A stretch of DNA of 64,000 bases from Oikopleura dioica. Lineage: Eukaryota; Animalia; Chordata. Where the stretch lies: positions 4,216,001-4,280,000 of the forward strand of contig OU015566.1 in assembly GCA_907165135.1 (NCBI GenBank). The letters run 5' to 3'. Shown here piece by piece: positions 10,901 to 56,117 of the stretch. The first letter of the stretch is position 1. Each line of letters opens with the position of its first letter. The translations under genes were made by a program, and so were the position numbers. The notes under the pieces were generated by a model. It had not been told where the DNA came from. It made no database searches and saw only the letters and a list, made by a program, of their open reading frames with translations.

Positions 10901-13527
10901 AAACGGTTCAAATGCCCAAATAAGGTAAAGGTATGGCTGCAATTTTAATTTTCAAAGGGGCATGATTTTTAACCTTTCTTTTTAGACAAACGAACCTGGA
11001 GTGGATCTGAAGCAGGAAAATACGGAGTATGAGCAGACCGAAAAGAGGTGAGTCAATTTATTCGGATGTAAACTTTACATTGTAAAGCATGCAATTTTCA
11101 AGCCAATAATTCAACAGTAAAAGTAACTCATCTAGCTTTAAATCCTCAATCATGACTCAAAAAACCTGTGTTGAAAACCTGAGTCAGGGTATGCTCTTTA
11201 CCAATGCGATAAAGACACCCTGACTCAGGTTTTCAACACAGGTTTTGAGCCTCTTTTTTAATGAAAGCTTCTTTCATCGCCCAATTTCTTTCCACTTTCT
11301 TTAAACAATTTTTTCTTTAGTTATCAAAATGAGCCCCCGCGCGTCTCAGTCGGCTCCCCTGTGGACAAGCATGTCGAGTACGAGACGGTCTACGCGACGA
11401 CCAGCCAGTTAGTACCTCTAGAACTCTTAGAACCCGCTAGTTGAAATTTTGATTTTCTCCTCATTGTTGATTCTTTTCCCTTCTGATCGTTTGATTTTTT
11501 CTTTTCTTTGTTATCCTAAACATAATATTGAGTCTGTGTCCATATTTGAGAGTTTAATATTTTTTCAGTCATCATCAGTCCCCCGGCGGCATCCAACTCG
11601 TCCCGATCGTTTCGCAGTCCTCGATCGTCACTTCTTCCCAGCCGCAGATAAAACCAGAGCCGAACCAATCGATCCAGCAAGTAGTGAGCCAAGGGAGCGC
11701 GCCCCAACCTGGCCAGCCGATTGAAGTCTTGCCTAGCGATGGAAGGGCGATTTATCACGATGCCAATGGTGTCCCGGTAAGTCACTTGGTCCCGGTAAGT
11801 ACCTTTTCAGCATGATCTTTGGGAGACCAAAGAATGGTGAAGGTACGATTTCGGTGGTAGATTTTGAAAACAATGCATCTGTTAGTTTGATTTTTACCTG
11901 TGTAGAAACCTGACTCAGGTTCCTGTAGAAGCTCTTTGAGGACCCTGACTCAGGTTTCAACATAGGTGGACAGCCCTTGCCTAAATTTTAGCTTTGTAAT
12001 CGAATTACAGTTAATTATGGAATTTTTGGACATTTTTTGTCCCATGATTTTCTCAAAAATGTCCAAAAATTCGATACACGCTCCCAAAAAAAATGTCCCA
12101 GCCGAATCGCTTAAAAAATTTTTTTTGAGGAAAAAATCGATCATCCTCTTTTTCCTCCTTCTTCCAAAGACACAAATATTCTTTGGGAACGAGATAAACC
12201 TTTAATTCTATCTTTCTGAAAGAGAAAGTAAAATTTTAAATAAAAATAAATGTCAAATTTTATGATATAACTGTTTTTTCATTGTAGAATAAAAATTTTG
12301 GCGCAGAAAATGTCCAAAAATTTGATACAAGCATTTTTAAAAAGTTTCCCAAGAAAACCCCTTAAAATTGAAAAAATGTCCAAAAATTTGATGTCCAAAA
12401 ATTCCATAATAAACTGTATTTTGGTGGAAGCACTCTTCCTTGATTTCAAAAACTTGATCATCATTTTCAGCTCAATCTCATCGACCCGAACGGCCAAGAA
12501 GGACAACAAGTGATCGTCCAATGGGCTCCCGAAGGCGCGATTCCAGACGGCCACGCTCAATACGTCCACGCTTATCAACCCCAGTTCCTGATCAACACTT
12601 CCGACCCGAACTACCACCCTCACCATCCCTTTTCCATCAACTCCCTCATGTCCACTGGCGCCATGACAATGGTAAGATTCCCTACTCATTTTCCCTTTCA
12701 ACATAAAAACGCACAAAATGACACTTTTTGAAACGATTAATTTTTAACCCGGGGCTACACCCGCTCATGATTTGGCGCGCACTCGCCTCAAGGCCGATAG
12801 AAAAAAAAAAGCAAATAGAAGTAAAAACGTAAATGGCGGGCTTTTTCCCCCGAAAAAATGAAGTCTAGTATGTGTGGTGAAAAGAAAAAAGCTTGAACTT
12901 TTGCCATTTTTTCATCCACTTGTTTCTCAAAATTGTGCCATTTTGTTTTCGTTAAAACAAAACCGGCGTGTTGTTCAACTCTTGATTTGTCCGATTCAGA
13001 ACGGTGAATACTTCACCCCGACTGGCCACATAATGCCAGCCACATTGACTCAAGCACCTGTTTCCACTGCTCAATCTGGCCAGATTCAAAGCGCTCCTCA
13101 TTCTGTCCAAAATTCTAACACTCAGAATTCAAAGGACGGAAACATCACCTACATCGAGCCGCAAACGATCGAGCTCCAGCGCACCGATGGTCCAAATCAG
13201 CAAAACTCTACCCCGGGCCAGCAGAATCAGTCGAACGCTGGTGGCGCTCAGGAGCAGAACCATCCGACCAATCAGCAGCAACAGCAGCAGCAGCAGCGGG
13301 CTGAGCAGCAACAGTCCAACCAACAAGAACAACAGTACTTGCCCGCGCAAGAAATTCCCGCGAGCAGCTCGCAATCCGACCCGATCGACCAGTCACAGCC
13401 CTCAGGCCAGGTCCAATTCGCCCCGGAATCGCCCTCCCAGCCGATGGAAAGCGAAAACCATCAGACTCCAAGCTCCAATCAAGTGACGAATCACAGCCCG
13501 ATTTCGAACGAAAACGACGAAGCGTAA
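7966..13527 (+). CDS. FoxA: Forkhead box A transcription factor, ~9 exons (7966-7980, 8026-8141, 10387-10707, 10750-10924, 10986-11047, 11321-11407, 11569-11776, 12471-12671, 13000-13527)
   Basis: [45 protein letters not shown]|[34 protein letters not shown]...[17 protein letters not shown] is the FoxA-type forkhead domain. HPFSINSLM is the eh1/region II motif. All junctions are in-frame GT-AG. Confidence 0.95.
8201..8417. mobile_element. MITE family A (CCTGTGTAGAAAACCTGAGTCAGG-type TIR), degenerate, carrying AAGCCGC/GCGGCTT repeats
   Basis: Ends resemble the copies at 11161, 11897 and 53088. Internal GAAGCCGC..GCGGCTTC units recur at 61988-62275. Confidence 0.5.
8540..9702. mobile_element. 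Non-autonomous DNA transposon with long TIRs and TA target duplication (Tc1/mariner-like), in a FoxA intron
   Basis: TA|ACATGGGCGACCCTTTGTTACTCGATAAAACGCTGGC ... GCCAGCGTTTTATCGAGTAACAAAGGGTCGCCCATGT|TA. Arms 8540-8730 and 9542-9702 are near-perfect inverted copies. Confidence 0.8.
11161..11246. mobile_element. MITE family A
   Basis: Perfect 30-bp IR AAAACCTGTGTTGAAAACCTGAGTCAGGGT / ACCCTGACTCAGGTTTTCAACACAGGTTTT. Confidence 0.75.
11897..11966. mobile_element. MITE family A (short copy)
   Basis: ACCTGTGTAGAAACCTGACTCAGG ... CCTGACTCAGGTTTCAACATAGGT. Confidence 0.6.
12008..12416. mobile_element. Tc1/mariner-like MITE
   Basis: TA|CAGTTAATTATGGAATTTTTGGACAT ... ATGTCCAAAAATTCCATAATAAACTG|TA: CAGT..ACTG termini with a TA duplication and internal AATGTCCAAAAA repeats. 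Confidence 0.75.
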
Positions 13528-28200: not shown

Positions 28201-31200
28201 GAAAAGTACTTGCGACTTCATATGTCTTATTTTGACGATCCGATGAATTCAACTGGAGCTCTGACAACGAGACTTTCCACCGATGCGTCACGTGTTCAGG
28301 ATTTGAGTTGAAAAAGATGTGCTTCAAGATCATATTCGCGATAAACGGAAAATAATGATTAATTTTGGTCAGCATCTCTATATAATTGCTATTTGAAATT
28401 TCGAGTTATCGCCATGACACCCTTAAAAGGCGCACAAACGATTCTGTTGCCCTTGACCAACTATCGATCTTCTCAGTCGGTCAAAAATTTTTCCAAAATT
28501 TTAAGGGTATCAGCGCGAAATCAATGTTTGAAAAATAACTACCATTTGACGAGGAGATCCTTAAAACACAAGTTCTACTAAATGAAATGAGCCCGTCTTA
28601 CAGCCTTTTTCTGCAGGTGCTCTTGTAACTTATGTTTTGGTCAAGAGCACGATAATTGCTCGAAGCTGTATCAAACAACAGAAAATATTTAATTCCACCA
28701 CAAAAAGCACTTTAATTGATCTTTGCCAATTAATTTGAACAACTCAAAACAGGGCGCTACTGGTTCGCGGATGGCCTTGATCACTCAAAACTTCTTCTCC
28801 CTTGGTTTCGCCTTCGTCATCGCTTTTGCCAATATTTGGGAGCTGACATTGGTCTGCCTCGGTTTTGTCCCGATTATGGCTGGAACTGGATTCTTTATGA
28901 TGCAGCTTTTCAGCGGAAAAATGGCGCTCAAGGAGCAGAAAGCCTACGAAAATGCTGGAAAAATTGCGACTGAAGCTACTTTGAATATCAGAACTGTAGC
29001 TTCTTTAGCTCGCGAAAAGACTTTCTACGAGAATTACATGAAAGAAGTTGCTATCCCACACGCCTCGGCAAAGAAGAAAGAATGGCTTTACGGAATGATT
29101 TACGGCCTTTCTCAGGGAATCATCTTTTTCGCTTACGCCGCGACGTTCCAATTCGGCGGATATTTGATCGAGAGCGGAAGACTTCCCGAAGATGATTTTG
29201 ACAAAATTTACAAAGTTCTCATGGCCGTTGTTTTTGGGGCAATGTCGGCGGGGCAGAGTTCTGCGTTCGCGCCGGATTTTGGTGAAGCGAAGCTTTCGGC
29301 TTTGAGGATGATCAAGGAAGGAGTGATAGAAAAATATTATCATTGATGATTTTTCGGGGTTAGGGTTAGGGGTGGCTGGAACCCACAAAAATTGCGACAG
29401 AGAGGCGATTTTTGAGAATTTTTTTCTAAAAATGTGTTTTTGACTGGCTTGCAGGCAAAATTCGGAAATTTGATTGGTCAAAAATTTGATCAAAATTTTT
29501 GAAAAATTATCCCGATTTTTGGTCGATTTCAATCCGCCTCCAAAATTTTTGGTCAGTACTGAAAATGTCACGAATGTCACGATTTTTCTAAAAATTTCAA
29601 GATTTTTCTGAAAAATGTCACGAAAAGAAATATGTTTCCGCGACATTCGTGACATTCGTTCCATTCTTGACATTCGTGACATTTTCAGCATTGTCGAAAT
29701 TTTTGGTCAAAGATGACCAAACAGCTACTCATGTCATTTCTGGATGAGCCAGGTATATTGGTATAAATTCAATGAATGCATAAATTGAGAGAAGCCACTT
29801 GAGCTTCAAGTCTTGAGCGTTCCTGATCCTTGTATTTTTGTGGTAAACGCTAGCAACGTGGCGATGCACACATTTCAAAAACATTATTATTAGTCTTTTT
29901 GACAACTCTCCCTTTTTGTTGTATTTAAAGCCGGGAGCGGACATGAAATTAATTGTATTGTGTTTTCAGTGGAAATAGGTATCCCTTAACTCCACTAAGT
30001 TAAACAACCATCGGAGTAGTATTACCGGATGTGCAAAGGGGAACGCGACAACATTTAAATTCGCGTTATCATTATTTTTATTCCAGTGGTTTTAAACTCG
30101 GAAACGTTTCTCCAGAAATGTCTTTTTCTATCACTTTTGCGAGCTTTTCAACCTTCCATCTGAAATCGACCCGACAGACCAGAGCGGCCAGCGACCGGAG
30201 AAAATTAAGGGAGACGTCGATTTCACCAATTTGAACTTCACCTACCCAACACGACCAGATGTTAAAGTTCTCAAAGGACTGACAGTATCAGGATCGGATT
30301 TCTCTTTCAAAAGCATTTTTTAAATTAATAAATATATTTTTAGGGCCGAACCAAAATAAGGAAGTAATAAGCTAGGAAGTGACAAAAAGGAAGTGATTTT
30401 TTGAAATGGGTTTTCATTGGCCGGTAGGCCAAATGCAGAGATCTTATTGGTCTTCAGAAAATGCACTTCCTTTTTGTCACTTCCTAGCTTATTACTTCCC
30501 TATTTTAGTTCGTGCCTTTTTTAATAAAAATAATAATTAATAATTTATATTATCCTTAATGTTTTTTCCTTTATTTTAAATAATAATTTAAATCATAATT
30601 ATAATTAATATGACATGATTATTTTCATAAAAAATCTAATTAATTTATTAAGGGGTAGTCCCTGCTTTTGAGAAAATCCGAATTTTGAAATTTTCTTTCC
30701 AGATTCTAAAAGCTCGTTAGAAAGGCTACAAATTTTGTATGGATCATTTTTTCCGAATGTAAGAGAAATTGGTTTAGTCCCCAAAATCGGCGTTAAAAAT
30801 CAATATTTTGATGAAAAATTTCAAAAAATTGAAAATTTTTGACTATTTTATCCAATGTCAAAGCGTTGTTTTAATGATTTTTGGTCTGTAGATTACTCAA
30901 ATAATAAATAAATTGTCTTCTATGAAGGCTACATAAGATTAATCTTCTTTGAAAAACTCATTTTTCAAGTTTTTCAGACCCAAGTTTTGATCGATGGTAT
31001 TAAATAATGATTTTTTGAGTTTCTTAATTTCGTTGAGTGGCAACTTTAGACGAAGGTATAAACTTGTTAAAAATATATTTGGTTTACATTTATTTTAATT
31101 TTTAAGGGCTCTACGCGTGTTTGAAAATAGGCCAAAATGGCGATTTTGCTCGGGTTAGGCTAGAATATGGCACCATAGCTCCTCGAGCGGTGGAAAAAAT

Positions 31201-43397: not shown

Positions 43398-46300
43398 TCA
43401 AACTTCCGATTTTTGCATTTCCAAGCTGCTGAAATTATGCAGATCGGATAAATTAGGCATGATGACTTCATTGGACGCATCCGCGAAATTGACACCGTGG
43501 ATTCTTCTTTCGATGTTTGTGTTTTTGCTCCAACTGGAGCCTTGCGAGCCCAAAAAGACGGCTGAAAATTGTTTTGATACAGTCATAAACACATGCGTTT
43601 GGACTAACAAGCTTTCAAGCATGTCTCCAGCTCGACGAGCGATAAAATTTCCCAAAATTCATCTTTCAGGTCTCCACAATTATTTTTCTTGTAAAATTTT
43701 CTGACAAAAGGATCGAGCTAAACATTTGTGAGATAGAAAAAGGTTAATTTGGTACCTCAGACTGCATAAGAACGGTAATTTCGGGGTTGATGATTTTGAG
43801 TTCTTTTCGCATATTTTTGATGAGATCGGCTTCTGATGGAGGTGTTGCGATATAAATAGTCTGAAATAAGAAACTTAATTATAGGTGCTTTTGACTCCAA
43901 AACCTGGGGTGGTGTCATGAATCGACAAAAATCTCGAGAACTTTTAATTTGATATTTCCTGGTGCTTATGCAAGTGTCCAACTCGTCGTGTTACCGCAAA
44001 ATATTTATTATACTGCATGATCCCAAAGGGATCGCGCACAGAAAGGGCGAGAGGGAAAACAGCTGATAGAGAGTGAGAAAACAGTTGATTCTCGGCGGAA
44101 AGGCCGTATCTATCTAAGCTCAACGGGAGATCGATTGAGGACAAACTGTCACTCACATCACCCACCCCCCGCTTTCTAGAGTTATGAGAAGAATTTTCTA
44201 TGATATCACACAAATTTTGACTGGATGTAGCGCGAGGATCATAGTAAGAAAGAGAAGAAAAGACACACAATCGAGAGTAGAGGATCAGAAATTGGAAAGA
44301 CAGAAAAGTTTTCTTATTGGTTTTTTTTGACGAGATTGTTTGAGTTGATGTTGTTGTTGTTTCCGGCATCGCTGTTGAATCGCACACAAGATAAGGAGAG
44401 AATAAAAAGAGGAAGTTTTAACTAAAGCAGAGTTCTATGGAAGTAATTGACTATGAGTATTAGCTAGAAGTTTTACGAGAGAGAAAGAGTACCTGACAAA
44501 AAAGTAACCGACACTTATACCGACTTAAGTTAGGTGAACTACAAAAACGTTAGGTCGGGTCAATTCCTAGTCCTAGGGTTCGATAAGGCATTACCCCCAC
44601 CCTTCTCCAAAGGCTGCCTATATGGGTCAGGAAAACGTCCCAAGAGTTCCATGATGAAAATAATTAAGGGTAGCCTAACCAGATCGAGGCAATTCTGTTC
44701 TGCAACCGTTACGTATACAGAGCCATCGTTGCCGTCCTTGGCGGCCTTCCCTCCCCTTCCTCAAAAAATCGAACCAAAACTTAATTATAGTTAACCCGGC
44801 CCCCAGAAGGAGGTATCAGTGACGGTATATTGGGAAAAAAAAACGAGTTGGACGTGGAGTTGAACTAAAGCGGTGCTAGCTAAATTAAGGGCTTCAGTGC
44901 CTTGTTAACTTTAAGTGCAAGTCCACGAACTCTACGTAAAAACTGAAAGGTTAGGATTACCAGGGTTGAAATGCATATAAAAAGAAGCGCAGAAGAGGAT
45001 ACCACTGAGATTGTTGTTGACTGTTGGAAGTTCACGTCGACTGTCTCGGCGAGCTCGTCGATCTTGTCGTCGATGTCATCGATAGCGTTGTCCAAGAAGT
45101 CGTCGTTGTTGAGGTCGAGAGTGTTGAACGTGAAGTTTTTGCTTGAGAGTCGGAAGTCGATCTGTTTGCCAGTATAGGTAGTGATCGGAGTCTTCGGAAT
45201 CTTGATGAGCTGGTCGTTTCCACCACAATAGATCTCTGTGTCTGTTTCAGACTGTAGAAAGTATCGGAATCCGGTAAATCGTTCTGGTTTGGATCCGAGA
45301 TCGGAGAGAAGAGTGCGGTTTCGAATGACTGCCTCGCCGGCAGAAAACACGATCAAGCCATTTTCTTCGAATGCGAAGGTGCATGAGGCGCTCGTTGGTG
45401 TTCGTTTGATATTGCATCGTCTGACATCTCGGAGGCAAGAACCGCTCATGATGGCTGAGTGTCGACAAATCATGTTTTGTCTTGCTCCGAGGCAAGAGAA
45501 GCGATCGATTTCGTACATTTCACCAGCCAGTTGCGTAGCGTATGGAGCAATGTCTGGGGCGACCAGTTCGTTTGATTCGGTAGATTTGACGATGATGCCA
45601 AACGGATTCGCTCGAAACAGCGTGGTCGGTGGTGACTCGATAACTGGAAAGTTGAGTGAGAAGTGCACGTCCAGGCCAGAATCTGTGATGTTCAGCCCAA
45701 GAAGCTGGGGTCGGAGCTCCTGTGGTAACTCTCGGAGAAGGTTTGCGCAATAAAGTTCGCACTGTTTGGCTTCCAAAGCTGCGCAAGATCCCCAACAGGC
45801 AGAAGAAAATAGCCTATTCCACTCGACTCGGAACGGCACCTCTCCTTGTTGCAATGCTGCCACTTCATAGTCCACTTCGCTTATATACTGGGTCACCGAG
45901 GCACGGGACCAGTCTTCGATCCTGTTCCTGATGACAGCTTCGTTGAGGCGGCAGAGGTCGCGTTCAACTGCAGAGATGCGCTCGTAAGTGGCGTTTAGGC
46001 TGACAGCTACAGTCGATTCCAATTTTCGAAAGTTCTTGGTGAGTTTGTCGATGTTGCGGCTCTGGGCGAGGCTGACCGACTTCAGGTTTGCGATGTCTGC
46101 GGTGTTCTTTACTTTCAGGCCCAAGTTGGCGGCCGCCAGAATAAGAGCTGGGGCACCGGCGAATCTTTTCATCAAGTGAGCTTCGTGCGCTTTCACGAAT
46201 TCCGCCTCCTCCTTCAGGCTGATGAGTTCGGCCTTGAATTGCTCGTCGATAGATTCGAGAAGGGCTTCTCGGCGATTGTCGGCCATGTCCTCGGAGCATT

Positions 46301-49300
46301 CTCGTTGATTCCAGCGGTTTGCTTTGAAGAATTGCTTGCAGGCGCCGACATCGCATCCAGGAGAGTCCATTTCGAGAAACGGAGATTTCGGAACGGGTCG
46401 CGTGACGATCACATAGTGACTGGAACGTTGTCTGGACAGGTACAGTGATCCAGCAGATTCGAGTAAAATGCCGCCATCGATGATGAGGGAGTCAGCATCG
46501 GCGTTTGCGGCGAGGAAGGTCAGAAGAGCAGGGAGCATATTCTCAGGATAACAACGTCTGAAATTTTCGGCGATTAGAAGGGATATCACGGCAATTTCTG
46601 TATGTACAAGAAACAAGAAAGGTTCATTTTGTGCTTGGCAGCTTACGAAGAAAGACAATATTTCTTTTCAGAAGTGCGCCAGATTCCTCGTCGCGTATTT
46701 CAAAGACGTTCTCAGCGATGACTTTGGTGACGACTGCGGTGTTCTTGAAGGCGACATGAAGCTTCTTGCACTTGCCGATCCTCATCGGCATCCAGTAACA
46801 GACTCGGTCATTCACGTTGATTTTCGTCTTTTGAATTGGCTTCACGTGATGAGCGAGTTGCTGCTGGTATTTCTGCCCAAGAAATTGTCCACACTGTCGA
46901 AGCCAACCGCTCATGTATGCTGACCAAAGCCAAGGGTCTTCATTGAGGTCCGGATCAGGGCGAAGATGGAAGAGAGGCAATTCCATAGGTCGGCCGGTCA
47001 AGGCTTCCGCTGGGCTGAGTCCATCCAGCGCAGCAGTAGGAGCATTGTTCATCTGGTAGAGCACGAAAGGGACCTGGCGGGACCAATCTTCTCGCTGAAT
47101 ATTCGCCAACTTTGCTTTTAGGCCCAAACTTCTGAATTTGCGCTCAATCTTGTTGGAACAAGCATGATACGGTGAAATGTGCGCAAGCCTCAGGTTGAAC
47201 TTCTCCATGATTTCTTTGAAGACTGTGCAGGTAAACTCGCGACCATTATCTGCCCTTACCATCGCTCCTTGAATTCCATTTGAAAGAAGCATGTCTGCCA
47301 TCGCAAACCCGACGGACTCGGCAGACTTGTCCGGTAAGCAGCGGCCAACAACGAATCTCGTCATATCGCACATAATACAGAGCAGATAGCGATTGCCCTG
47401 TAGATCAACCTGACCGAAGTCTGTCAGATCGCAAAACAATTTCTGCCAAGGTCTTGCCGAGCATTCTGGCTTGGGGGGCGACAGTGCTTTCAGCTTTGGG
47501 CGCGGCTTTATTCGCCAACACGTCTCGCAAGCTTCACAGACTTCCTTGCAGATTCTGCTGATACCGGAGATGAAGAACTTCCGTCTCAGAATGTTTTCTA
47601 GCGCGAGTGCTCCAGGATGGCCCATGCGAGCGTGGACGAAGCTGCTGATCTCGATTTGCAGTGGTTCTGGAAGAGCGATGATGTCCTCCTTCCCAGCGCG
47701 GACCAAGATTCCTTTTGCATCGGCGACGAGCTTCTTTTCCTTCTTCATCTTTTTCAAGACAGGATCAATTTCTTGAAGCTTGATTATGTCCCCGGCGGTG
47801 TAGGGAATGTCTCCAGACACCATCACGACTTCATTGCTGCCTTGACTTTGCGCGTTCTCGGATTCTGCTTGAGCTAAGCGTCTTGCTCTTCGCGTTTGCA
47901 TCGCCAGGACTTCTAGCAGCTCCGATGCCCGTGGTCTGAGCTCCACAGTGTTGAGAAAGCCTCTATCCAAGCAGTCGCTTTCATCATTGTCCTCCCCAGG
48001 GCTGATTTCGTATTGTCGACTCAACGCATCGACAACGATGATGACTCCTTCGGTGTTTGGGACGTATTCGATTCCCTTGACCTGGAATCTTGCCAACCGG
48101 GCGAACAAGTTCGTGACACGGACCGGAACATCCATTCGCATTTTTCGCTCTGTGAGCACTTGCCCAAGCGACTTATGATCCGTCAAGGCCAGTACTGGGG
48201 TATTGTAGCATTCGAATTCGAACGCCTCAAGTGCTGTGACGAGTCCCAACAGCTCCAAATATCGGGATGGCAGCTTCTGTTCCCCATCTTTGAGCGCGCG
48301 GCTGAAGTATCCCAAAGTCTGCAGCTTTCCGGACGGCTCTTTTTGGTAGAGACATGCTCCGATGCCTGTTTTGCTCGCGTCACTTGCAATGACGAGAGGC
48401 AGACTTTCGTCCCGGTGATTAAACGCGACGACTTCCATCAGCGCCCGTTTGTATGTCGCAAAGGCCTCCTCGTGAGTCGACTTCCATTCGAAAGCAGCTT
48501 TTGATGGCGCGGCCAATTTGTGCAGGGGCGAGAGTGTCCGGTGTCCATCCTTGACGTACAGGGAGTAATAATTGGTCATTCCGAGGAACCTTCTGAGCTC
48601 CTTTCGACTTCTTGGTCGCGGGTAATCCTTGATCGGCCCAAGCTTGTCCTGAAGTGGCTCAATTCCTCGGTCGGTAATTCGAAATCCCAAGTACGAGAAG
48701 CTCTGTACGAAAAAGTGCGACTTCTCGATTTTCAAGAGCAGTCCGTTTTCCTCCATTATTCGCAGGAACTCATCGACTGCAGCCAAATGCTCGTCGAAGT
48801 CGGAGTGACAGATCACACAATCGTCCATCAGGACGCTGAGTCCAGACACGTGACCGGCCAATCTGTCGATGACGTTGGCAAAAACAGAAGGACTGTTCTG
48901 GAGACCGAAACACATCCGCCGCGCAATGTATTGTCTTCCCTGGAAGCTGAATGCACATTTGTGGGCGTCTCTTGGATCGGTGCGGACTTGGTTAAAAGCG
49001 GACGCCACGTCCACCGAAGTCACGTACAGCTGACCTTTGCTCTTCGCAATGTCCCTGGAAAGTCGAGCCATTAGTTCCTTGATCGACGGTAACGGCCAGC
49101 GCGTCGGGATCGTCAGTGCATTCAGCCGGCGGGCGTCCAGGACGGGGCGGACGTCGTCTTTCCCCTTTTTAACAAAAAATAGGGGCAGGTTAAAGTCGCT
49201 GGCACCCCTTTCGACGACGCCCGCCTCGACCCAATTTTCGACCTTCTCCTCCGCTTTCGGGCGCAACGCTGGTCGGCAAGGAACAGGCTTTTCATATACC

Positions 49301-52300
49301 CGTTGGGATTCGTCGAAGAGTCGTATCCGGAAAGCCTGCCCTTTCAACATTCCAAGATCCGTTGGGCCAGTCGAAAATACCCGTCGGCGCTTCTCCATCA
49401 TCTCATTCACCTTTCGTCGCTGCGGTGGCGTGAGGTTACTTCCGATCTCGACGTCTTTGTATCGTTCGCCGTCCTTGCCACGAAGCCGGATTTCTCGATT
49501 TGCTTTGAACTGTTGCCATTCGCGGTCGAACTCGTCCGAATCGATGGACACAAGCTCGTTGTACTCGAACTGCCCATTTGGCCGCTTTTCCATCATCGCT
49601 GCAACAGCTACCTCCGCTCCTGACGGGATTGTCAGCGCAGTCTCCGTGGTATTGAAAACCATTATCGTCGTCATCGGTGAAGCATTGTAAACCGCTTTCA
49701 TGATGTCAACGGAGTTCTCGTGACAAAATCCCTTGTTTGATGGCTCGACAATCATCACATTTTCTCCTTCCTCCTTTCCAACGGGAACAGAAACTCTGAT
49801 CGGAGTCAGTGCTCGAGGGGCAATCGTAGCCACATGTACATTGTTCAGGACAAGAGTTCTGCCTGAAGGGACCATATCAAACGTGACTTTGTCGATCGTG
49901 ATCGTTTCTGCAGCACGGTCGATGGTAAGCTTCGAAAACGCAGACATTCCAATAATTGCATCGTGATTGAGATCTTGGACGATGAGGAAGGGTTCGTACT
50001 TGGGTTCACCACCAAAGTTGAGTGGAAGCCAGATACGTTCACGGACAACCATGGTGGTGGCGTTTGCAACTGTGATGCTGGCATCGATGCGGTCGCGTCG
50101 GGCGTCAGGGAAATTGTTGGCGATTTTCGAGGAAATTATGGACACATTGGCGCCTGAATCGCAGAGACAAAGAACTTCTTCAGACAGGATTTTCAGGCGG
50201 ATTTTCGGCAAAATATTCGGTTGAGAGATCGAGTGACAATGAAGGGATGGATTGGAGCTTTTGGCACTACCGTCAGGCTGGCCTAGTCATTGTGTCTTTC
50301 TTGAGGGGCACTCCTGACGGTAGTGCCTGGGCGGGTGCCCACTTTCGGTCAGCGGGCACACATCGCAGTACGGCTTCTTATTCTGGCCCCAGTGCTTCTT
50401 CTTCCCATGACCCTGCTCCGGCTGGCGCTGTTCTGGTTGCTGGGCCGCCACGTTGCATGTTGCCTGGTTTTTGGCGATCGTCTCGATGCTCGTGAGAAGT
50501 CGAGTGATACATTCATCCTGTTTCAGGGCCAACTGTTCCATGGCATCCATCCGCGTTCCAAGTGATCCCATCTGCTTTATAACGTCGCAGTCCTTGAGGA
50601 AATGTGGTCCAGAGCAGAGATGGCATTTGATGTCTCGGTAGGCCGCATTCAAGTCGTAGCCAAGGGTATCAGGATCATTGATAGGCTCGCTGACCGTCCA
50701 ACTTCCTTCCAGCAACGCCAGTATGTCTGCGATTTCCGCCAGAGAAGTGGTCATCTGATGGCTGATCCAAACGGTGAAGAACTGCTGGTACTCTTGTGGC
50801 CGGAGAATCCTTTTCAATGACGTTCGGATCAACTGTTTTTGCGCTTCCTCAGGGAGATTTTCGTAAACGGATCCGGATGAGCTGAGCAAGTTCATCAGCC
50901 GTGAGTAAGCTTCGCTGATTGTTTCTCCTCGACCTCGAGTCATCGCCTCAATCTTCATCGTGAGCTTTGAATGATTATATCCGAGTCGTTTTCGCAATTT
51001 CGCAGCTGCTTCCTCGTAACTCATCGCCATGGTAAATCCACATTCGCGCTGAATTTGCGGTGCCAATTTGATTCGTAGGACCAGCATCTTTTGTGTTTCG
51101 GACCAGTCGTAGATTTGGCCCAGATTCTCGATCCCGTCAAGGAGTATTTCGATCAGCTCAGGTGACCTTGTGCTCACGCTTTTGATGTCTTGCGATTCCT
51201 TCCGAAGCAAATCCCGACTTCTCGTATTGGCCAATCCAGCTGTGTTCACAGCGTACCCATGTGTCGATGGTGGAGTAATCGGCGGCGATGTCTTTGGTGA
51301 CGTGGCGAAGGGTGTTGCGGTCATTGTCGCTGAGGTACCCTTAGTCCAGGTCGGTTGCTGCCCAGAAGCAGTTGGATTCCAAGATCGTTGAGAGAAGGGT
51401 CGAGCATCAAATCCAGTTTCGAGCGCGGAAGTAGTCACGAATGCTGTTCTCCCGGAAAGCGAATTGATTGAATCGATGCGGGAGTTCCTCTCGTTGTCAC
51501 GCGCTTCAAAAGAGGCGATTCCAGGGCTCTCTGAGGTCGAACCTGTCGGTGCCGTAGTGCTTGAAGTCAGTGGAGGATACGCGAAGGAACTTGTTGAAAC
51601 TGGCGCTGGCGATGTAACTGATGGTAGTGTCGGTACGATGGGCACTGGCGGTGCTGATGGCACTGGAGCCTGCGATCCGTGAGCCACAGTGGTAACAACG
51701 GGCTCCTCCTCCTGCCCTTCCTCGTCGTCAATGTTGGCTGTATTTACTGCGAAATCCGACAAATCGTCGGTTTTTCGGTAATGATTTGCACGGGCATGAG
51801 CACGTAGCGTCGCTTGCAACTCGGCTTTCAGACCTTTCGTCGATAATCCAAGGCGGCGACAGACATTTCTAAGCTGAGCAACAGTCAAGTCTCTGATTGG
51901 AGTCAGGTTCATGGCCATTTTTCTTGAGCGCCAAAGATTACCAAGGCTCGATCGGTGTCGCTGACGGAAGAGACGAGTAAAAGATCCTATTCGAACCACT
52001 TTCAGTCGAAGAAGTTAGTTGACTAATGTAACTGTCGGCACGGCTGACTCTGGTGGCGGAGATGTGGCCAACGTTGTACTCGAAGGCGGTGCAGCTGCGG
52101 TCAGCTGTGAAGTCGAAGGTAGTTGAGTTGTGGGCAGCTTTGCACTCGAGGGTGGTGTAGCTGTGGTCAACTTCGTAGTCGAAGGTGGTGGAACGGTGGC
52201 TAGCTTTGTACTCGAAGGCGGTGGATCAGGAGCAAGCTTTGTAGTCAACGGCGGTGGAGCGGTGGCTAGCTTTGTACTTGAAGGTGGTGAAGCTGTGGGC

Positions 52301-55300
52301 AGCTATGTACTCGAAGGTAGTGGAGTTGTGGGCAGCTCCGTATTCGAAGGTGGTGTAGCTGTGGCCAGCTTCGTAGACGCAGGTGGTGGAGCTGTTGCCA
52401 GCTTTGTACACGAAGGTGGTGAAGCTATGGGCAGCTACGTTGTCGACAGCTGCGTGAAGAAGAAATTGGCGCTGCTCGTCGTGACTCCGCTTACAGACGT
52501 GCTCAGCGGGAATCGGATCGGGTGTACCAATTCAGTAGATAATCGAAAACGAAGGAGCCCGAAGTTCCCAACCCACTATGACGAATTTCCGCCCAAGGTC
52601 GCAATACGTACTTTGAATTTCAGGCGATTCGTGTAGTCGATCCAGTATTCTGATGCGGTTCTTTATCCAAACTCTCGATTTTCTTTTCTTCTCAAAAATC
52701 TTCGGAGTCTCTTTTAAGGCGTTCTTTTTCCGGTGAAGTCACCAGTAATTTGATATTTCCTGGTGCTTATGCAAGTGTCCAACTCGTCGTGTTACCGCAA
52801 AATATTTATTATACTGCATGATCCCAAAGGGATCGCGCACAGAAAGGGCGAGAGGGAAAACAGCTGATAGAGAGTGAGAAAACAGTTGATTCTCGGCGGA
52901 AAGGCCGTATCTATCTAAGCTCAACGGGAGATCGATTGAGGACAAACTGTCACTCACATCACTTTTGCGTAGGCGGCTTATCTGCTGCTAATTAGCCGGT
53001 AGGCCGAGTACTGGCTTCTGATTGGCTGAGAATTTCTACGCAAAATTTGTTGGGATTTCTTTGTCGGTTCTTGTCACCTGCCCCAAAACCTGTGTAGAAA
53101 ACCTGAGTCAGGCTCTGACAGATGTAAAGCAGCCTTGCGGCATTTTCGAGAAACGAGGCCGCTCTGCGTGTCTAAAAAAGCTCCAATGAAGCTTCACATT
53201 TAAGCTCTGCCAGAGCCTGACTCAGGTTTTCTACACAGGTCTTATCTTATGAATTTTGGTAAATAAAGATGAAAAAATATTCTCCAAAGCAGATTCTGGT
53301 TACAGCGCTATTTGTAGGTATAAGCCCCGTAATCCAGACGTTACTCTCTATAATTCTCTAATAAAATCACGGTAAGATAATAATCGTGCCAAATTTGCCG
53401 ATCCCTCCGCGCAGTCTGCAGATTATCTCGATTTTAGCAAATTGAGAAATCTGAGCGTGAAAATATGGCTTGTAAAGATGAATCAGAACATCTTCTTCAA
53501 ACCGCAAAATTAAATTACTGGCTTATCAAAAGATACATTTTCTCTCTCTTACTTTGATATTTTGGGTCGTAGATTCAAGACCACGTGACAAGTAAGTGTC
53601 GATTTGTTTCGCGAAAATCTTCGGATTGCGCATTAACGAGAGCTGCTTGCATAATTTCGGCCCCTTTTGCTCCAAATCCCCGTTTCCGTCTCTGAATACT
53701 CCTGCATCAATGTCGCATCCTCCGTGCCACCAGTCATCATCGTTGTATCTCCAGTGGAGGGCCACGTAGCCGGAATCGTTAATGAATTCTTTGACAAAAA
53801 GGTCGGCAACTTCCTCGATATGTGTTGGTCGTCCGGTTGCTTTGATGATGTCGACCATGAGTTGTCGATCTTCGGGGAGGATTTTCTCGTTGAAGATATT
53901 CTTGGCGAAGTTGATGTCCATGTAAGGGAAACCAATCAGGGCACAACTGTGATCAGTATCATACAGTGACTGGAATGTTCTTAAAATAAAAATTGAATTT
54001 TTCTCTCAAAATCGATCTTATTGGTCAAAAAATAAGATCTAGAACTCCATATTGACCAAATTTTCTATTGCTTTTATCAGCCAATAAGATTTATAAAAAA
54101 TCTTAAAAATCAGGGTTTTGATTGGCCGGAAGGCCAAATACAGCAATCTTATTGGTAGTCCATAAATTCACTTCCATAAACTGTTTTAGTCCGTAGAAAT
54201 GGATTTTTACTTACGTAAAGTTTCCATCTTGTCCAAATCGCCCCCTTGGTTTCTTCTCCGGAATAAGCGGCAGGGCTATGTCTTCGATACAGTGAGATTC
54301 TGTCGTTTCGCAGTCGAGATCATCAACTTGGCAATCGATGTTTCTGCAAGTCCTCAAAAGTCGGCCAGAATTTGTCGCTCCAAGCCCGATTTTTAATTGA
54401 TAAAAAACGCTTTTTTCGTGTTCCAACTTGTTTATAAGCTAACATATTTTCCTCAGAGACATTTAAAGAATTGACATGTTGTGACGTCCTGTCAAAAACA
54501 GAGTGCACTGCGCCCTGGCTTTGCATAAGGCCAATTATTCAGAACACGCTTCCTTATTTGATGATCCTCGCAGACGTCGGGAATGTCGGAAAAAGGATGA
54601 ACGTTGATTAGACCTTTCATCTTCGAAGGCGAAATGCGGAAACTTGGAGAGACTTCAGCGTAAGGGTCTTTGACTGAGGTTGGATCTGCGTGGTCGTGTT
54701 TGAAAAATTTTGGCTGAAAATATTTTTATAAATAGATTCAAAAAATATCAAAAATAATTAAGGACCCCCCCCCCCTTTTTCCTTCGAAAAATAGAAATTT
54801 CTATAAACCCAATATTTTTTGTTCTTAATGCGTTCTTAGGTTAAACTTGCTGAGAAGAACTGAAAAGGAGAAGTTTTGACCATGAAAAATCAATATTTTT
54901 GCCAAAATTAGGGCAAATTTGTCAATTTTCGGCGAAAAGTCCAATTTTTTAATGCGATTTTTAGTGTGTAAGAGTCGAGATAGACCCCCAAAAAATGAGG
55001 CCTCGAAATCGTTTTTTGACCTGTAGAATCCATTTCCGGGGTCAAAATTTAAAAATTCCGAAATTAGATCTTTCGAAAAGAGCTGACGGGGAGTCCTTAA
55101 CAACATTCACTTACGAGAATATACGAGCGATTCAATTTTATTGCCATAAAAATCGTCTCCCTCAGTCCAACAAGTTGATTGTTCGGCCCATTCATCAAAA
55201 CCGTCGTTAAAAACTTGTCATTTCTCGTTGGATATTTCGCCTTCAAAGGGTCAAGGCTGAATTCTTTTTCTGTATATTTTTCACTCAGCGGACAATTTTC

Positions 55301-56117
55301 AGGAATATCTGACGAAGATGACTCATCGAAATCGTCCTCGTCTTCGAAAACTTCTTCGATTTCTGCTTCGATTTCGTCGTCTTCTTCGATTTTTTCCCAT
55401 TCTTCGTCCGTCAGCGTTTTCGGAAAAGGAGGGCGGTTCATTCTTCCCAAAACTTCTTTCTCCGCCTTGTGTTTTAACAGCTCCTCCACGCCGATGTTAT
55501 TTTTGAGAAAGTCGATTTGGTCACGCAACGTGGAAATAGTACGCTCATCGCTGCTCAAGTCCGCTTCTCGCTGCGAAAGCTCTTTTTCAATTAACAGGAT
55601 TTTCGCCGAGAGAAGCTCGTTTTCCGCTTCTAGCTTCAAAAAGGTTCAAAAAGAACATGGATAAATTGGCATGATTGACATTCAACGCTCATTATTTTGA
55701 CAAGTTCGGCATTTTTAATTTTCTTCCAAATGGAAATGCAAAAACTCGATTTTTTTGTCCGAATTTGTCACAAAAATTTTTTTTCCTTTCAAAAGCCAAA
55801 ATTTTTTTCAAAAATTTCAAATTTCAAAAATTTTTTTTCAAAAATTTTTTTTCAAAAATTTCAAATTTTCAAAATTCTTTTAAAAATTACAAAAATTTTA
55901 AAATTTCAAAATTCTTAAAAGTTAAAAATTATTTCAAAAATTTTTTCAAAAAAGCAAAAAAAAATTTTTTTTTTTGAACCTTTTCCTTATCATATTCTTC
56001 TGCCCCGGAAACAATTTTTTTCTCTTCAAAAAATAAAATTTGATAAACAAACGTCAAAATTAACAAAAAAATTAATCCAATTACAAGTCGATTGTGTCTC
56101 TTTCCATCGTGAATCAT
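43398..56117 (-). CDS. GDP-fucose O-fucosyltransferase-like (POFUT-like fold) type II membrane protein; intron 43861-53552 contains the retroelement
   Basis: N-terminal TM, coiled-coil stem, GPNNQL.GLRE...A..LNR..ILP, YVALHWRY. The splice NIK|TIYIAT spans the insertion, followed by SLVE.E.C..ASVFLGSQGSSWS....ER. Confidence 0.8.
43945..44160 (-). repeat. 3' LTR
   Basis: Identical by eye to 52746-52961. Starts with TG on the minus strand and contains AATAAA. Confidence 0.95.
44161..44177 (-). other. Polypurine tract
   Basis: AGAAAGCGGGGGGTGGG immediately before the TG of the 3' LTR. Confidence 0.85.
44880..46538 (-). CDS. env: Envelope glycoprotein, class I fusogen resembling paramyxovirus F
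   Basis: Signal peptide MLPALLTFLAANADA, cleavage site/fusion peptide MKR|FAGAPALILAAANLGL, heptad repeat, Cys-rich region, N-glycosylation sequons, C-terminal TM and a short basic tail. Confidence 0.85.
   Translation of the reverse strand: MLPALLTFLAANADADSLIIDGGILLESAGSLYLSRQRSSHYVIVTRPVPKSPFLEMDSPGCDVGACKQFFKANRWNQRECSEDMADNRREALLESIDEQFKAELISLKEEAEFVKAHEAHLMKRFAGAPALILAAANLGLKVKNTADIANLKSVSLAQSRNIDKLTKNFRKLESTVAVSLNATYERISAVERDLCRLNEAVIRNRIEDWSRASVTQYISEVDYEVAALQQGEVPFRVEWNRLFSSACWGSCAALEAKQCELYCANLLRELPQELRPQLLGLNITDSGLDVHFSLNFPVIESPPTTLFRANPFGIIVKSTESNELVAPDIAPYATQLAGEMYEIDRFSCLGARQNMICRHSAIMSGSCLRDVRRCNIKRTPTSASCTFAFEENGLIVFSAGEAVIRNRTLLSDLGSKPERFTGFRYFLQSETDTEIYCGGNDQLIKIPKTPITTYTGKQIDFRLSSKNFTFNTLDLNNDDFLDNAIDDIDDKIDELAETVDVNFQQSTTISVVSSSALLFICISTLVILTFQFLRRVRGLALKVNKALKPLI
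46624..50286 (-). CDS. pol: Pol polyprotein (protease, RT, RNase H, integrase), in frame with gag
   Basis: LCDSGA protease; RT motifs (D..SAFNQ, MCFGLQNSP, LMDD, YLGF); RNase H (SDAS, ELL, TDHKSL); integrase HHCC and D..D(35)E-type core. Confidence 0.95.
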   Translation of the reverse strand, partial: LGQPDGSAKSSNPSLHCHSISQPNILPKIRLKILSEEVLCLCDSGANVSIISSKIANNFPDARRDRIDASITVANATTMVVRERIWLPLNFGGEPKYEPFLIVQDLNHDAIIGMSAFSKLTIDRAAETITIDKVTFDMVPSGRTLVLNNVHVATIAPRALTPIRVSVPVGKEEGENVMIVEPSNKGFCHENSVDIMKAVYNASPMTTIMVFNTTETALTIPSGAEVAVAAMMEKRPNGQFEYNELVSIDSDEFDREWQQFKANREIRLRGKDGERYKDVEIGSNLTPPQRRKVNEMMEKRRRVFSTGPTDLGMLKGQAFRIRLFDESQRVYEKPVPCRPALRPKAEEKVENWVEAGVVERGASDFNLPLFFVKKGKDDVRPVLDARRLNALTIPTRWPLPSIKELMARLSRDIAKSKGQLYVTSVDVASAFNQVRTDPRDAHKCAFSFQGRQYIARRMCFGLQNSPSVFANVIDRLAGHVSGLSVLMDDCVICHSDFDEHLAAVDEFLRIMEENGLLLKIEKSHFFVQSFSYLGFRITDRGIEPLQDKLGPIKDYPRPRSRKELRRFLGMTNYYSLYVKDGHRTLSPLHKLAAPSKAAFEWKSTHEEAFATYKRALMEVVAFNHRDESLPLVIASDASKTGIGACLYQKEPSGKLQTLGYFSRALKDGEQKLPSRYLELLGLVTALEAFEFECYNTPVLALTDHKSLGQVLTERKMRMDVPVRVTNLFARLARFQVKGIEYVPNTEGVIIVVDALSRQYEISPGEDNDESDCLDRGFLNTVELRPRASELLEVLAMQTRRARRLAQAESENAQSQGSNEVVMVSGDIPYTAGDIIKLQEIDPVLKKMKKEKKLVADAKGILVRAGKEDIIALPEPLQIEISSFVHARMGHPGALALENILRRKFFISGISRICKEVCEACETCWRIKPRPKLKALSPPKPECSARPWQKLFCDLTDFGQVDLQGNRYLLCIMCDMTRFVVGRCLPDKSAESVGFAMADMLLSNGIQGAMVRADNGREFTCTVFKEIMEKFNLRLAHISPYHACSNKIERKFRSLGLKAKLANIQREDWSRQVPFVLYQMNNAPTAALDGLSPAEALTGRPMELPLFHLRPDPDLNEDPWLWSAYMSGWLRQCGQFLGQKYQQQLAHHVKPIQKTKINVNDRVCYWMPMRIGKCKKLHVAFKNTAVVTKVIAENVFEIRDEESGALLKRNIVFLRKLPSTK
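50287..51918 (-). CDS. gag: Gag with an N-terminal SAP-like domain and Zn knuckles
   Basis: First ATG at 51918. LTVAQLRNVCRRLGLSTKGLKAELQATL, Ser/Thr/Pro linker, capsid-like region, CHLCSGPHFLKDC and CDVC..H..H....C. Confidence 0.85.
   Translation of the reverse strand: MAMNLTPIRDLTVAQLRNVCRRLGLSTKGLKAELQATLRAHARANHYRKTDDLSDFAVNTANIDDEEGQEEEPVVTTVAHGSQAPVPSAPPVPIVPTLPSVTSPAPVSTSSFAYPPLTSSTTAPTGSTSESPGIASFEARDNERNSRIDSINSLSGRTAFVTTSALETGFDARPFSQRSWNPTASGQQPTWTKGTSATMTATPFATSPKTSPPITPPSTHGYAVNTAGLANTRSRDLLRKESQDIKSVSTRSPELIEILLDGIENLGQIYDWSETQKMLVLRIKLAPQIQRECGFTMAMSYEEAAAKLRKRLGYNHSKLTMKIEAMTRGRGETISEAYSRLMNLLSSSGSVYENLPEEAQKQLIRTSLKRILRPQEYQQFFTVWISHQMTTSLAEIADILALLEGSWTVSEPINDPDTLGYDLNAAYRDIKCHLCSGPHFLKDCDVIKQMGSLGTRMDAMEQLALKQDECITRLLTSIETIAKNQATCNVAAQQPEQRQPEQGHGKKKHWGQNKKPYCDVCPLTESGHPPRHYRQECPSRKTQ
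52050..52445. repeat. 33-bp tandem repeat (~12 copies) in the retroelement leader
   Basis: GAAGGTGGT-type anchors at 52082, 52115, 52148, 52181, 52214, 52247, 52280, 52313, 52346, 52379 and 52412. Confidence 0.9.
52731..52744 (-). other. Primer-binding site
   Basis: TGGTGACTTCACCG one nt after the 5' LTR. The TGGTGAC start matches tRNA-Trp-type PBSs, but the primer tRNA was not verified. Confidence 0.6.
52746..52961 (-). repeat. 5' LTR
   Basis: Identical to 43945-44160. Confidence 0.95.
53088..53240. mobile_element. MITE family A
   Basis: ACCTGTGTAGAAAACCTGAGTCAGGCTCTG / CAGAGCCTGACTCAGGTTTTCTACACAGGT perfect 30-bp IR. Confidence 0.8.

What the first reader, a model, noticed from the sequence alone, without database searches (positions are those of the whole stretch)
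50263..50327. gag-pol stop codon in a CAA-UGA-CUAG readthrough context, enclosed in the loop of a perfect 15-bp stem
Seen: gag and pol are in the same frame. The only interruption is UGA at 50289-50287, followed by CUA G and 25 open codons into the protease region. GGCACUACCGUCAGG (50327-50313, inside the last Gag Zn knuckle) is the exact reverse complement of CCUGACGGUAGUGCC (50277-50263), which places the stop in a 35-nt loop. Established: UGA-CUA(G) is a leaky context (alphaviruses; mammalian AQP4, LDHB, MDH1), and known readthrough stimulators normally lie wholly 3' of the stop. Inference: a stem straddling the stop is melted by the arriving ribosome. It could act as a translation-coupled switch setting the Gag:Pol ratio, or as a packaging/dimerisation signal exclusive with translation.
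Basis: partly seen in the sequence, partly recalled or inferred. Interest (0 to 1): 0.85.

Follow-up and report, generated by a model that had tools for sequence, protein, structure and literature searches.

The report
Leaky stop in tunicate retrotransposon
A young jumping gene of the sea-squirt relative Oikopleura has one stop codon between its coat gene and its enzyme gene, kept with the same following bases in every relative compared, so the enzymes are likely made by occasional read-through (a known trick), while the striking hairpin predicted to enclose that stop is missing from those relatives and is probably a local add-on rather than the signal.

Summary
An intact env-bearing Tor-type gypsy element of Oikopleura dioica has gag and pol in one frame, split by CAA-UGA-CUA-GGC, and a perfect 15-bp stem (35-nt loop) encloses the stop (z -6.9; most stable of 447 windows in the element).

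Four relatives holding the junction (33-65% Pol identity) all keep the in-frame UGA-CUA-RGC-C. In the window the first ATG after the stop lies beyond the protease active site. Programmed readthrough is therefore likely (~0.9, not assayed). The layout is known from fission-yeast Tj1/Tosmo elements.

The stem fares worse. None of 4 relatives has it. One keeps a 7-bp in-register core with three two-sided changes (p 0.008 alone, 0.11 over all four), but that core does not form once the ribosome footprint is masked. A similar perfect 13-bp/34-nt-loop stem sits inside RT of another relative, away from any stop, as template switching would produce. A near-identical copy keeps the stem, with little power.

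Verdict: known kind of readthrough; lineage-restricted stem of uncertain function. Bold reading (~0.13): the stem re-forms around the ribosome paused at the stop.

The parts
52747..52961 (-). 5' LTR (215 nt)
   Evidence: Identical to the 3' LTR; a 5-nt target duplication flanks the element
52730..52744 (-). Primer-binding-site-like stretch starting TGG just inside the 5' LTR; cognate tRNA not tested
   Evidence: Sequence
50290..51918 (-). gag ORF, 543 aa, N-terminal SAP domain, C-terminal CCHC-type motif
50313..50327 (-). 5' arm of the perfect 15-bp stem (-38..-24 from the stop), in the last Gag knuckle codons
50287..50289 (-). In-frame UGA ending gag; predicted readthrough site
   Evidence: same stop in 4 of 4 relatives
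50280..50286 (-). Conserved 3' context CUA-GGC-C (+4..+10)
   Evidence: +1..+6 and +8..+10 invariant in 5 of 5 elements, +7 G in 4 of 5
50263..50277 (-). 3' arm of the stem (+13..+27, U of UGA = +1), in the variable linker before the protease
46624..50286 (-). pol frame: protease (DSG at codon 43), RT, RNase H, integrase; first in-frame ATG at codon 79
44880..46538 (-). env ORF with KR-FAG and NLG motifs, 15 Cys, hydrophobic C-terminus; starts 85 nt after the pol stop
   Evidence: motif definitions from PMC4402516 section 17
44161..44177 (-). Polypurine-tract-like run before the 3' LTR
   Evidence: Sequence
43946..44160 (-). 3' LTR (215 nt)

Best explanation
This is the gag-pol junction of an intact env-bearing Tor retrotransposon, where most ribosomes likely stop at the UGA to make Gag and a minority likely read through, driven mainly by the conserved bases UGA-CUA-RGC-C, to make Gag-Pol; the 15-bp stem predicted around the stop is absent from four relatives and probably arose or was perfected in this lineage by polymerase template switching. 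Shown: the frame, the stop, its conservation, the lack of an ATG before the protease active site, and the stem and its absence elsewhere. Inferred: that readthrough occurs; that a near-cognate tRNA (Trp, Cys or Arg, from general knowledge) decodes the UGA; that a short pre-existing complementarity between knuckle codons and the unconstrained linker was copied out into a perfect inverted repeat; and that the arriving ribosome melts the stem, so readthrough does not depend on it.
For: Stop and context kept in 4 of 4 relatives at 65, 64, 33 and 33% Pol identity, although CUA is only 1-15% of Leu codons in these pol genes. First in-frame ATG is codon 79, after the catalytic DSG at 43. A contig from another study keeps the stop, and its differences in the post-stop frame are mostly synonymous (5 of 7 codons in codons 1-40, 17 of 24 beyond). 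UGACUAGGC is the OPRL1 motif (PMC13517186 passage), ~17% readthrough in human cells (PMC9841425 passage). Stem absent from relatives: best straddling duplex -17.2, -10.5, -8.4 and -2.5 against -33.7, empirical p 0.13-0.99. With -16..+9 masked as ribosome-bound, no relative pairs +10..+29 with upstream sequence. L005 has a perfect 13-bp stem with a 34-nt loop inside RT, covering an Asn-to-Cys change seen in only 3 of 145 fetched proteins, all one cluster. Template switching is documented to make perfect 7-16-bp arms in coding DNA (PMC8604942 section 5).
Against: Of 9 kb, the one long perfect stem sits on the stop, and its 3' arm starts after a 9-nt spacer, the distance typical of 3' stimulators (PMC3159437 passages). 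L002 has 7 contiguous pairs in exact register with three two-sided changes (p 0.008 alone). The three-sequence alignment beats most shuffles (covariation 15/500, paired cells 4/500), although the structure was taken from one of the three. L004 has a 7-bp, three-GU helix one base off register (p 0.02). The near-identical copy has no change in 50259-50467. No relative at 70-95% identity that lacks the stem was available, so a multi-base change on one branch could not be shown. Readthrough itself was not measured.
Confidence: 0.55

Rival explanations
1. The stem is a selected, lineage-specific regulator of readthrough. Either it re-forms around the paused ribosome (the 35-nt loop is about one footprint, the 5' arm has left the exit side, the 3' arm waits at the entry) and acts as an internal antisense clamp that slows termination, or it hides the stop context until translation opens it.
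For: With -16..+9 forbidden to pair, all 15 pairs still form at probability ~1.0 (this is folding energy only, not sterics). The 9-nt spacer matches VEEV/EEEV stimulators. Duplexes 3' of a stop can stimulate readthrough in trans (PMC11347175). L002 in-register core. Stop codons enclosed by pairing with upstream sequence are conserved in umbravirus-like RNAs (PMC10602861 passage).
Against: Absent from 4 of 4 relatives with the same context. L001, 88% identical to L002, has only 3 contiguous pairs in register; Fisher p over four relatives is 0.11 (0.04 at +-1 register, 0.14 at +-3). Aligning the shared Q-P-D codons shifts L002's 3' strand by one codon, so its core may not be homologous. In the antisense study only +8 duplexes worked; +10 to +12 did not affect termination, and this arm starts at +13.
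Confidence: 0.25
2. The stem is selected for a job outside readthrough: packaging or Gag binding, dimerisation, shielding the gag stop from nonsense-mediated decay, or a reverse-transcriptase pause and recombination point.
For: Strongest fold in the element. In the other-study contig, divergence is ~7% on the pol side and ~2% on the gag side, and the change falls 5 nt past the 3' arm, which would fit a crossover there.
Against: Not kept in relatives. No palindrome of 6 nt or more in the loop, and the homodimer gains only ~4 kcal/mol. No Rfam match. One contig cannot place a crossover.
Confidence: 0.12
3. Pol is made without readthrough, from an internal promoter, a spliced RNA or reinitiation, as partly seen for Candida Tca2.
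For: Tor3b/4b elements use an internal promoter for env, and Tor3a elements splice (PMC4402516 passages). The Tca2 junction held a cryptic promoter and did not read through in yeast (PMC2194720 abstract). The four relatives have an ATG before the protease motif (codons 29, 28, 20, 20).
Against: The window element has no ATG before the active site. Strict in-frame, codon-exact conservation of UGA-CUA is not explained by these routes. 5' RACE with gag or pol primers found starts only in the 5' LTR.
Confidence: 0.07
4. The UGA is a disabling nonsense mutation in one copy.
For: None beyond the bare possibility.
Against: Same stop at the same place in 4 of 4 relatives and in the other-study contig; identical LTRs and open ORFs.
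Confidence: 0.01

Closest known systems
Fission-yeast Ty3/gypsy elements Tj1, Tcry1, Tosmo1-3 (PMC10085805, passages)
   Same: In-frame UGA between gag and pol followed by CUA/CUG; conservation lies in a short primary context.
   Different: Chromoviruses without env; no stop-enclosing stem in the passages seen; conserved stretch is GAA-UGA-CU, not UGA-CUA-RGC-C.
UGA-CUAG readthrough motif of OPRL1, MDH1 and alphaviruses (PMC9841425, PMC13517186, passages)
   Same: The nine bases UGACUAGGC equal the OPRL1 motif.
   Different: Here it separates gag and pol; efficiency in Oikopleura is unmeasured.
3' structural stimulators: MoMLV pseudoknot, VEEV/SINV extended stem (PMC3159437, PMC4178896, passages)
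   Same: A helix begins 9 nt after the stop.
   Different: Their two arms are both 3' of the stop and conserved with covariation; here the partner is 5' of the stop and not conserved.
Tca2 of Candida albicans (PMC2194720, abstract)
   Same: gag-UGA-pol in one frame with a predicted structure of unproven role.
   Different: Copia-type (label from earlier scan notes); structure is 3'; the junction alone gave no readthrough in yeast.
Tor3b/Tor4b elements of Oikopleura dioica (PMC4402516, passages and sections 7, 17)
   Same: Host, LTR-gag-pol-env layout, Env motifs.
   Different: The main text does not discuss how Pol is translated; subgroup not assigned here.
Template-switch-perfected inverted repeats in coding DNA (PMC8604942, abstract and section 5)
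   Same: Perfect arms of 7-16 bp, spacer under 70 nt, within coding sequence, restricted to a lineage.
   Different: Shown for yeast DNA replication; the branch-specific multi-base change could not be shown here.

Membership tests
Tor elements (Ty3/gypsy, Oikopleura) | Host is Oikopleura dioica | tested here: met
   Flanking exons match a named O. dioica gene model, mostly at 95-100%; nearest Pol cluster holds named O. dioica proteins
Tor elements (Ty3/gypsy, Oikopleura) | LTR-gag-pol(PR-RT-RH-IN)-env-LTR organisation | tested here: met
Tor3b/Tor4b | Env with F-X-G tripeptide, N-[L/V]-G motif, cysteines and C-terminal hydrophobic segment | tested here: met
   FAG, NLG and 15 Cys against the description; no membrane predictor run; the seven conserved Cys were not mapped
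Tor3b/Tor4b | Pol groups with named Tor3b or Tor4b references | not testable with these tools
   No named Tor reference sequence was returned; the tree has only unnamed or 'unnamed protein product' rows
Tor4b | Intergenic space between pol and env | tested here: inconclusive
   85 nt between pol stop and env ATG; size in named elements not seen
UGA-CUA(G) gag-pol readthrough cassette | Single in-frame UGA with conserved CUA(G) context | tested here: met
   5 of 5 elements UGA-CUA; +7 G in 4 of 5
UGA-CUA(G) gag-pol readthrough cassette | No alternative ATG giving a whole protease | tested here: met
   Window: first ATG codon 79, DSG codon 43; not met in the four relatives
UGA-CUA(G) gag-pol readthrough cassette | Gag-Pol fusion is actually made | not testable with these tools
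   Needs reporter, proteomics or ribosome profiling
3' structural readthrough stimulators (MoMLV, alphavirus) | Both arms 3' of the stop | tested here: not met
   Partner is upstream; the 3' region alone folds no better than shuffles (z +1.0, +1.6); no distal partner shared by 3 or more elements
3' structural readthrough stimulators (MoMLV, alphavirus) | Structure conserved with compensatory changes | tested here: not met
   Five-sequence covariation 107/500 shuffles; only a partial core in 1 of 4 relatives
Template-switch-perfected inverted repeat | Perfect arms >=7 bp, spacer <=70 nt, in coding DNA | tested here: met
   15 bp, 35 nt
Template-switch-perfected inverted repeat | Multi-base change on one arm against the immediate ancestor | tested here: inconclusive
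   The closest relatives without the stem are ~65% identical and the linker is saturated

The most novel reading that the evidence does not exclude
The stem is a selected cis-acting clamp that re-forms around a ribosome paused at the gag stop: the 35-nt loop threads through the ribosome, the upstream arm acts as a built-in antisense strand on +13..+27, and this sets the Gag:Gag-Pol ratio. A weaker version survives in the sister lineage (L002).
Probability: 0.13. Interest if true: 0.8.

Novelty: new member of a known kind. Interest (0 to 1): 0.36.

Why it matters
It documents a deeply conserved UGA-CUA-RGC-C gag-pol junction across Tor lineages that share only a third of their Pol residues. I did not find this stated in the library searched (the founding 2004 Tor paper is not held, and may report it). 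It extends a known strategy to a chordate retrovirus-like element and gives a natural test of the +7..+10 context. The stem is a caution that a spectacular single-sequence hairpin need not be the signal. If it did work by closing around the ribosome, it would be a new geometry for readthrough control that a simple reporter could test.

Tried and rejected
No whole genome is held for this window, so sister copies in the same assembly could not be compared. Protein-seeded scans of viral contigs found no relative, nor did the prokaryote genomes. Junction-pattern scans gave 39 and 2 matches, none with tblastn similarity to Gag or Pol. Gag searches returned only the host gene model. No RNA holder was listed, and three raw RNA runs laid no reads; this is no test of expression. 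Small-share runs X5 and X6 covered only parts of the stretch and were not used. Rfam: no match at E<=1. A purely 3' hairpin or long-range 3' stem shared by the family: not found. Raised synonymous conservation at the junction: 9 of 16 codons against 52% background for L001/L002, no clear peak. L001's distant 6-bp straddling helix (p 0.035 on one null, 0.13 on another) is in a different register and was set aside. L003 lacks the junction and was left out of all junction counts. The supplement of PMC4402516 could not be read and may show gag-pol layouts. Volff et al. 2004 is not held.

Full report
Observation. On the minus strand the window reads CAA TGA CTA GGC, with the TGA at 50289-50287. Gag (543 aa from the ATG at 51918) and a 1220-codon Pol frame abut at this stop. 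Pfam finds a SAP domain in Gag, and protease, RT, RNase H and integrase in gypsy order in Pol. 50327-50313 and 50277-50263 are exact reverse complements around a 35-nt loop; the next longest perfect stem in the element is 11 bp. Chance expectation is 6e-4 anywhere in the element and 3e-6 around a chosen codon. The 81-nt region folds at z -6.9 and is the most stable of 447 windows. The feature is real and not a random-sequence accident.

What the element is. Two identical 215-nt LTRs with a 5-nt target duplication bound gag, pol and an env ORF. It lies in an intron of a gene whose exons match a named Oikopleura dioica gene model, and its nearest Pol cluster contains named O. dioica proteins. 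Env has the F-X-G and N-L-G motifs that PMC4402516 (section 17) gives for Tor3b/4b. I file it as a young Tor element of that type. The subgroup could not be tested without named references.

The stop. One metagenome scan gave 5 related loci out of 323 candidate stretches; 4 of the 5 hold the junction. All 4 have gag and pol in frame, split by one TGA a few codons after the last knuckle Cys, followed by CTA GGC CGC, CTA GGC CGC, CTA GGC CGA and CTA AGC CGA. Pol identities to the window are 65, 64, 33 and 33% over 700 codons. CTA makes up only 1-15% of Leu codons in these genes, so the context is conserved as nucleotides. The 8 best protein relatives all begin at the protease and none is fused to Gag. 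In the window the first in-frame ATG is codon 79, past the catalytic DSG at 43, so reinitiation cannot give a protease; the four relatives do have an earlier ATG. A contig from another study spans the junction, keeps the stop, and differs mostly at synonymous sites after it (5 of 7 and 17 of 24 codons). UGACUAGGC is the OPRL1 motif (PMC13517186 passage), ~17% readthrough in human cells (PMC9841425 passage). Gypsy elements with in-frame UGA-CU are described in fission yeasts (PMC10085805 passages). Readthrough is thus likely (about 0.9) but not measured.

The stem, evidence against generality. Windows centred on the stop fold at z -5.3 in the window and +0.8, -0.6, -0.75 and -0.5 in the relatives. 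The best duplex across the stop is -33.7 kcal/mol (beyond all 1637 background positions) against -17.2, -10.5, -8.4 and -2.5 (p 0.13-0.99); synonymous resampling agrees, except for a marginal p 0.035 for an off-register helix in L001. On the five-way alignment 48% of cells pair and covariation does not beat shuffles (107/500). With the ribosome-covered stretch masked, only the window pairs its 3' arm with upstream sequence; L004 and L002 form local 3' hairpins instead, neither beyond background (p 0.07 and 0.33 of 30). No distal 3' partner is shared by three or more elements. L005 carries a perfect 13-bp stem with a 34-nt loop in the middle of RT, about 8e-3 expected by hand arithmetic. It overlaps an Asn-to-Cys change found in 3 of 145 fetched proteins, all one cluster. 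Perfect stems of this shape thus also occur in Tor coding sequence away from any stop, as template switching is known to produce in yeast genes (PMC8604942 section 5). The linker after the stop is the least constrained coding stretch, so such an event would survive there.

The stem, evidence for something more. RNAalifold on the three closest sequences recovers 7 of the 15 pairs. L002 forms all 7 in exact register, with three two-sided changes and one G-U (p 0.008 against 1980 positions). L001, 88% identical to L002, has 3 contiguous pairs. Over four relatives Fisher p is 0.11, 0.04 or 0.14 depending on the register tolerance. The three-row count gives 15/500 for covariation, but the structure came from one row and rows are related. 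The 3' homology is also ambiguous, because aligning the Q-P-D shared by the window and L001 shifts the register by a codon. The other-study contig has 16 differences in 751 nt and none in 50259-50467. At its 2% (gag side) or 7% (pol side) divergence, zero changes in 30 arm bases has probability 0.5 or 0.1 by hand arithmetic, and a 169-nt gap exists elsewhere, so this has little power. The 3' arm starts after a 9-nt spacer, as in VEEV/EEEV stimulators (PMC3159437 passages).

Mechanism. Inferred: ribosomes translating the knuckle codons unwind the stem, reach the UGA, and mostly terminate; the CUA-GGC context lets a few percent insert an amino acid and continue into Pol. Since relatives keep only this context, it is the likely core signal. 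Geometry leaves one opening. With the stop in the A site the ribosome covers roughly -16..+9 (5' limit recalled; 3' limit from the abstract of PMC5829715 and from PMC11347175), so both arms lie outside it and could re-pair; energetically all 15 pairs can. That would resemble readthrough-inducing antisense oligonucleotides, but in that study only +8 duplexes worked and +10 to +12 did not (PMC11347175 passages), while this arm begins at +13. Whether a helix can close across the ribosome was not modelled. Stop codons enclosed by upstream pairing are known from umbravirus-like RNAs (PMC10602861 passage), and predicted MoMLV structures starting at -18 gave way to the 3' pseudoknot (PMC13517186 section 4.1 part 1), so 'straddling' is not unprecedented.

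Literature seen. Passages: PMC4402516 (plus sections 7 and 17; supplement unreadable), PMC13524379, PMC10085805, PMC4178896, PMC13517186, PMC11347175, PMC9841425, PMC5009743, PMC10602861, PMC3159437, PMC2774666 (reference line only). Abstract: PMC2194720; PMC8604942 (plus section 5). Searches for Tor or Oikopleura readthrough and for stop-enclosing structures listed no paper whose title or opening lines describe this junction. Volff et al. 2004 is not held and may state it. Earlier notes of this scan list several gag-UGA-pol junctions in other genomes, none for this family; they were not used as support.

Verdict. New member of a known kind: a conserved UGA-CUA-RGC-C gag-pol readthrough site in Tor elements, with a real but lineage-restricted stem whose function is unproven. 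Interest 0.36. The ribosome-encircling clamp remains possible at about 0.13 and would merit 0.8.

Noticed in passing
window 43401-56117 (minus strand): The element sits in an intron of an O-fucosyltransferase-family gene (PF10250), on the same strand. The public gene model P0028 takes 159 codons of gag (51054-50578) as an exon, probably a mis-annotation.
   Followed up: partly
L005:2526-2585: Perfect 13-bp stem with a 34-nt loop inside RT, overlapping an Asn-to-Cys change in the FGLxNAP-type motif that is private to that cluster.
   Followed up: partly
L004:2399-2416: Conventional local 7-bp hairpin starting 9 nt after the stop (downstream region z -2.5); a possible ordinary 3' stimulator in that lineage.
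   Followed up: partly
window 52052-52436: 33-nt tandem array (11.7 copies) in the leader between the primer site and gag; it is open as a repetitive 169-codon frame on the + strand.
   Followed up: no
window 50335-50359 (minus strand): Second, 9-bp hairpin just upstream of the 5' arm, in the first half of the knuckle; weakly echoed in the three-sequence consensus fold.
   Followed up: no
window 51796-51891 (minus strand): Gag begins with a SAP DNA-binding domain (E 8e-10).
   Followed up: no
window 46085-46175 (minus strand): Env has a basic site followed by a hydrophobic FAG-led stretch that resembles a paramyxovirus-type fusion peptide (resemblance recalled, not tested); shared with L003.
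   Followed up: no
window 49766-50900: The other-study contig is ~7% divergent on the pol side and ~2% on the gag side, with the change just 3' of the stem; possible recombination.
   Followed up: partly
window 53085-53243, 11161-11246, 30360-30499: Long host hairpins (30-38-bp arms), two of them related in sequence, like small palindromic repeats or MITEs.
   Followed up: no
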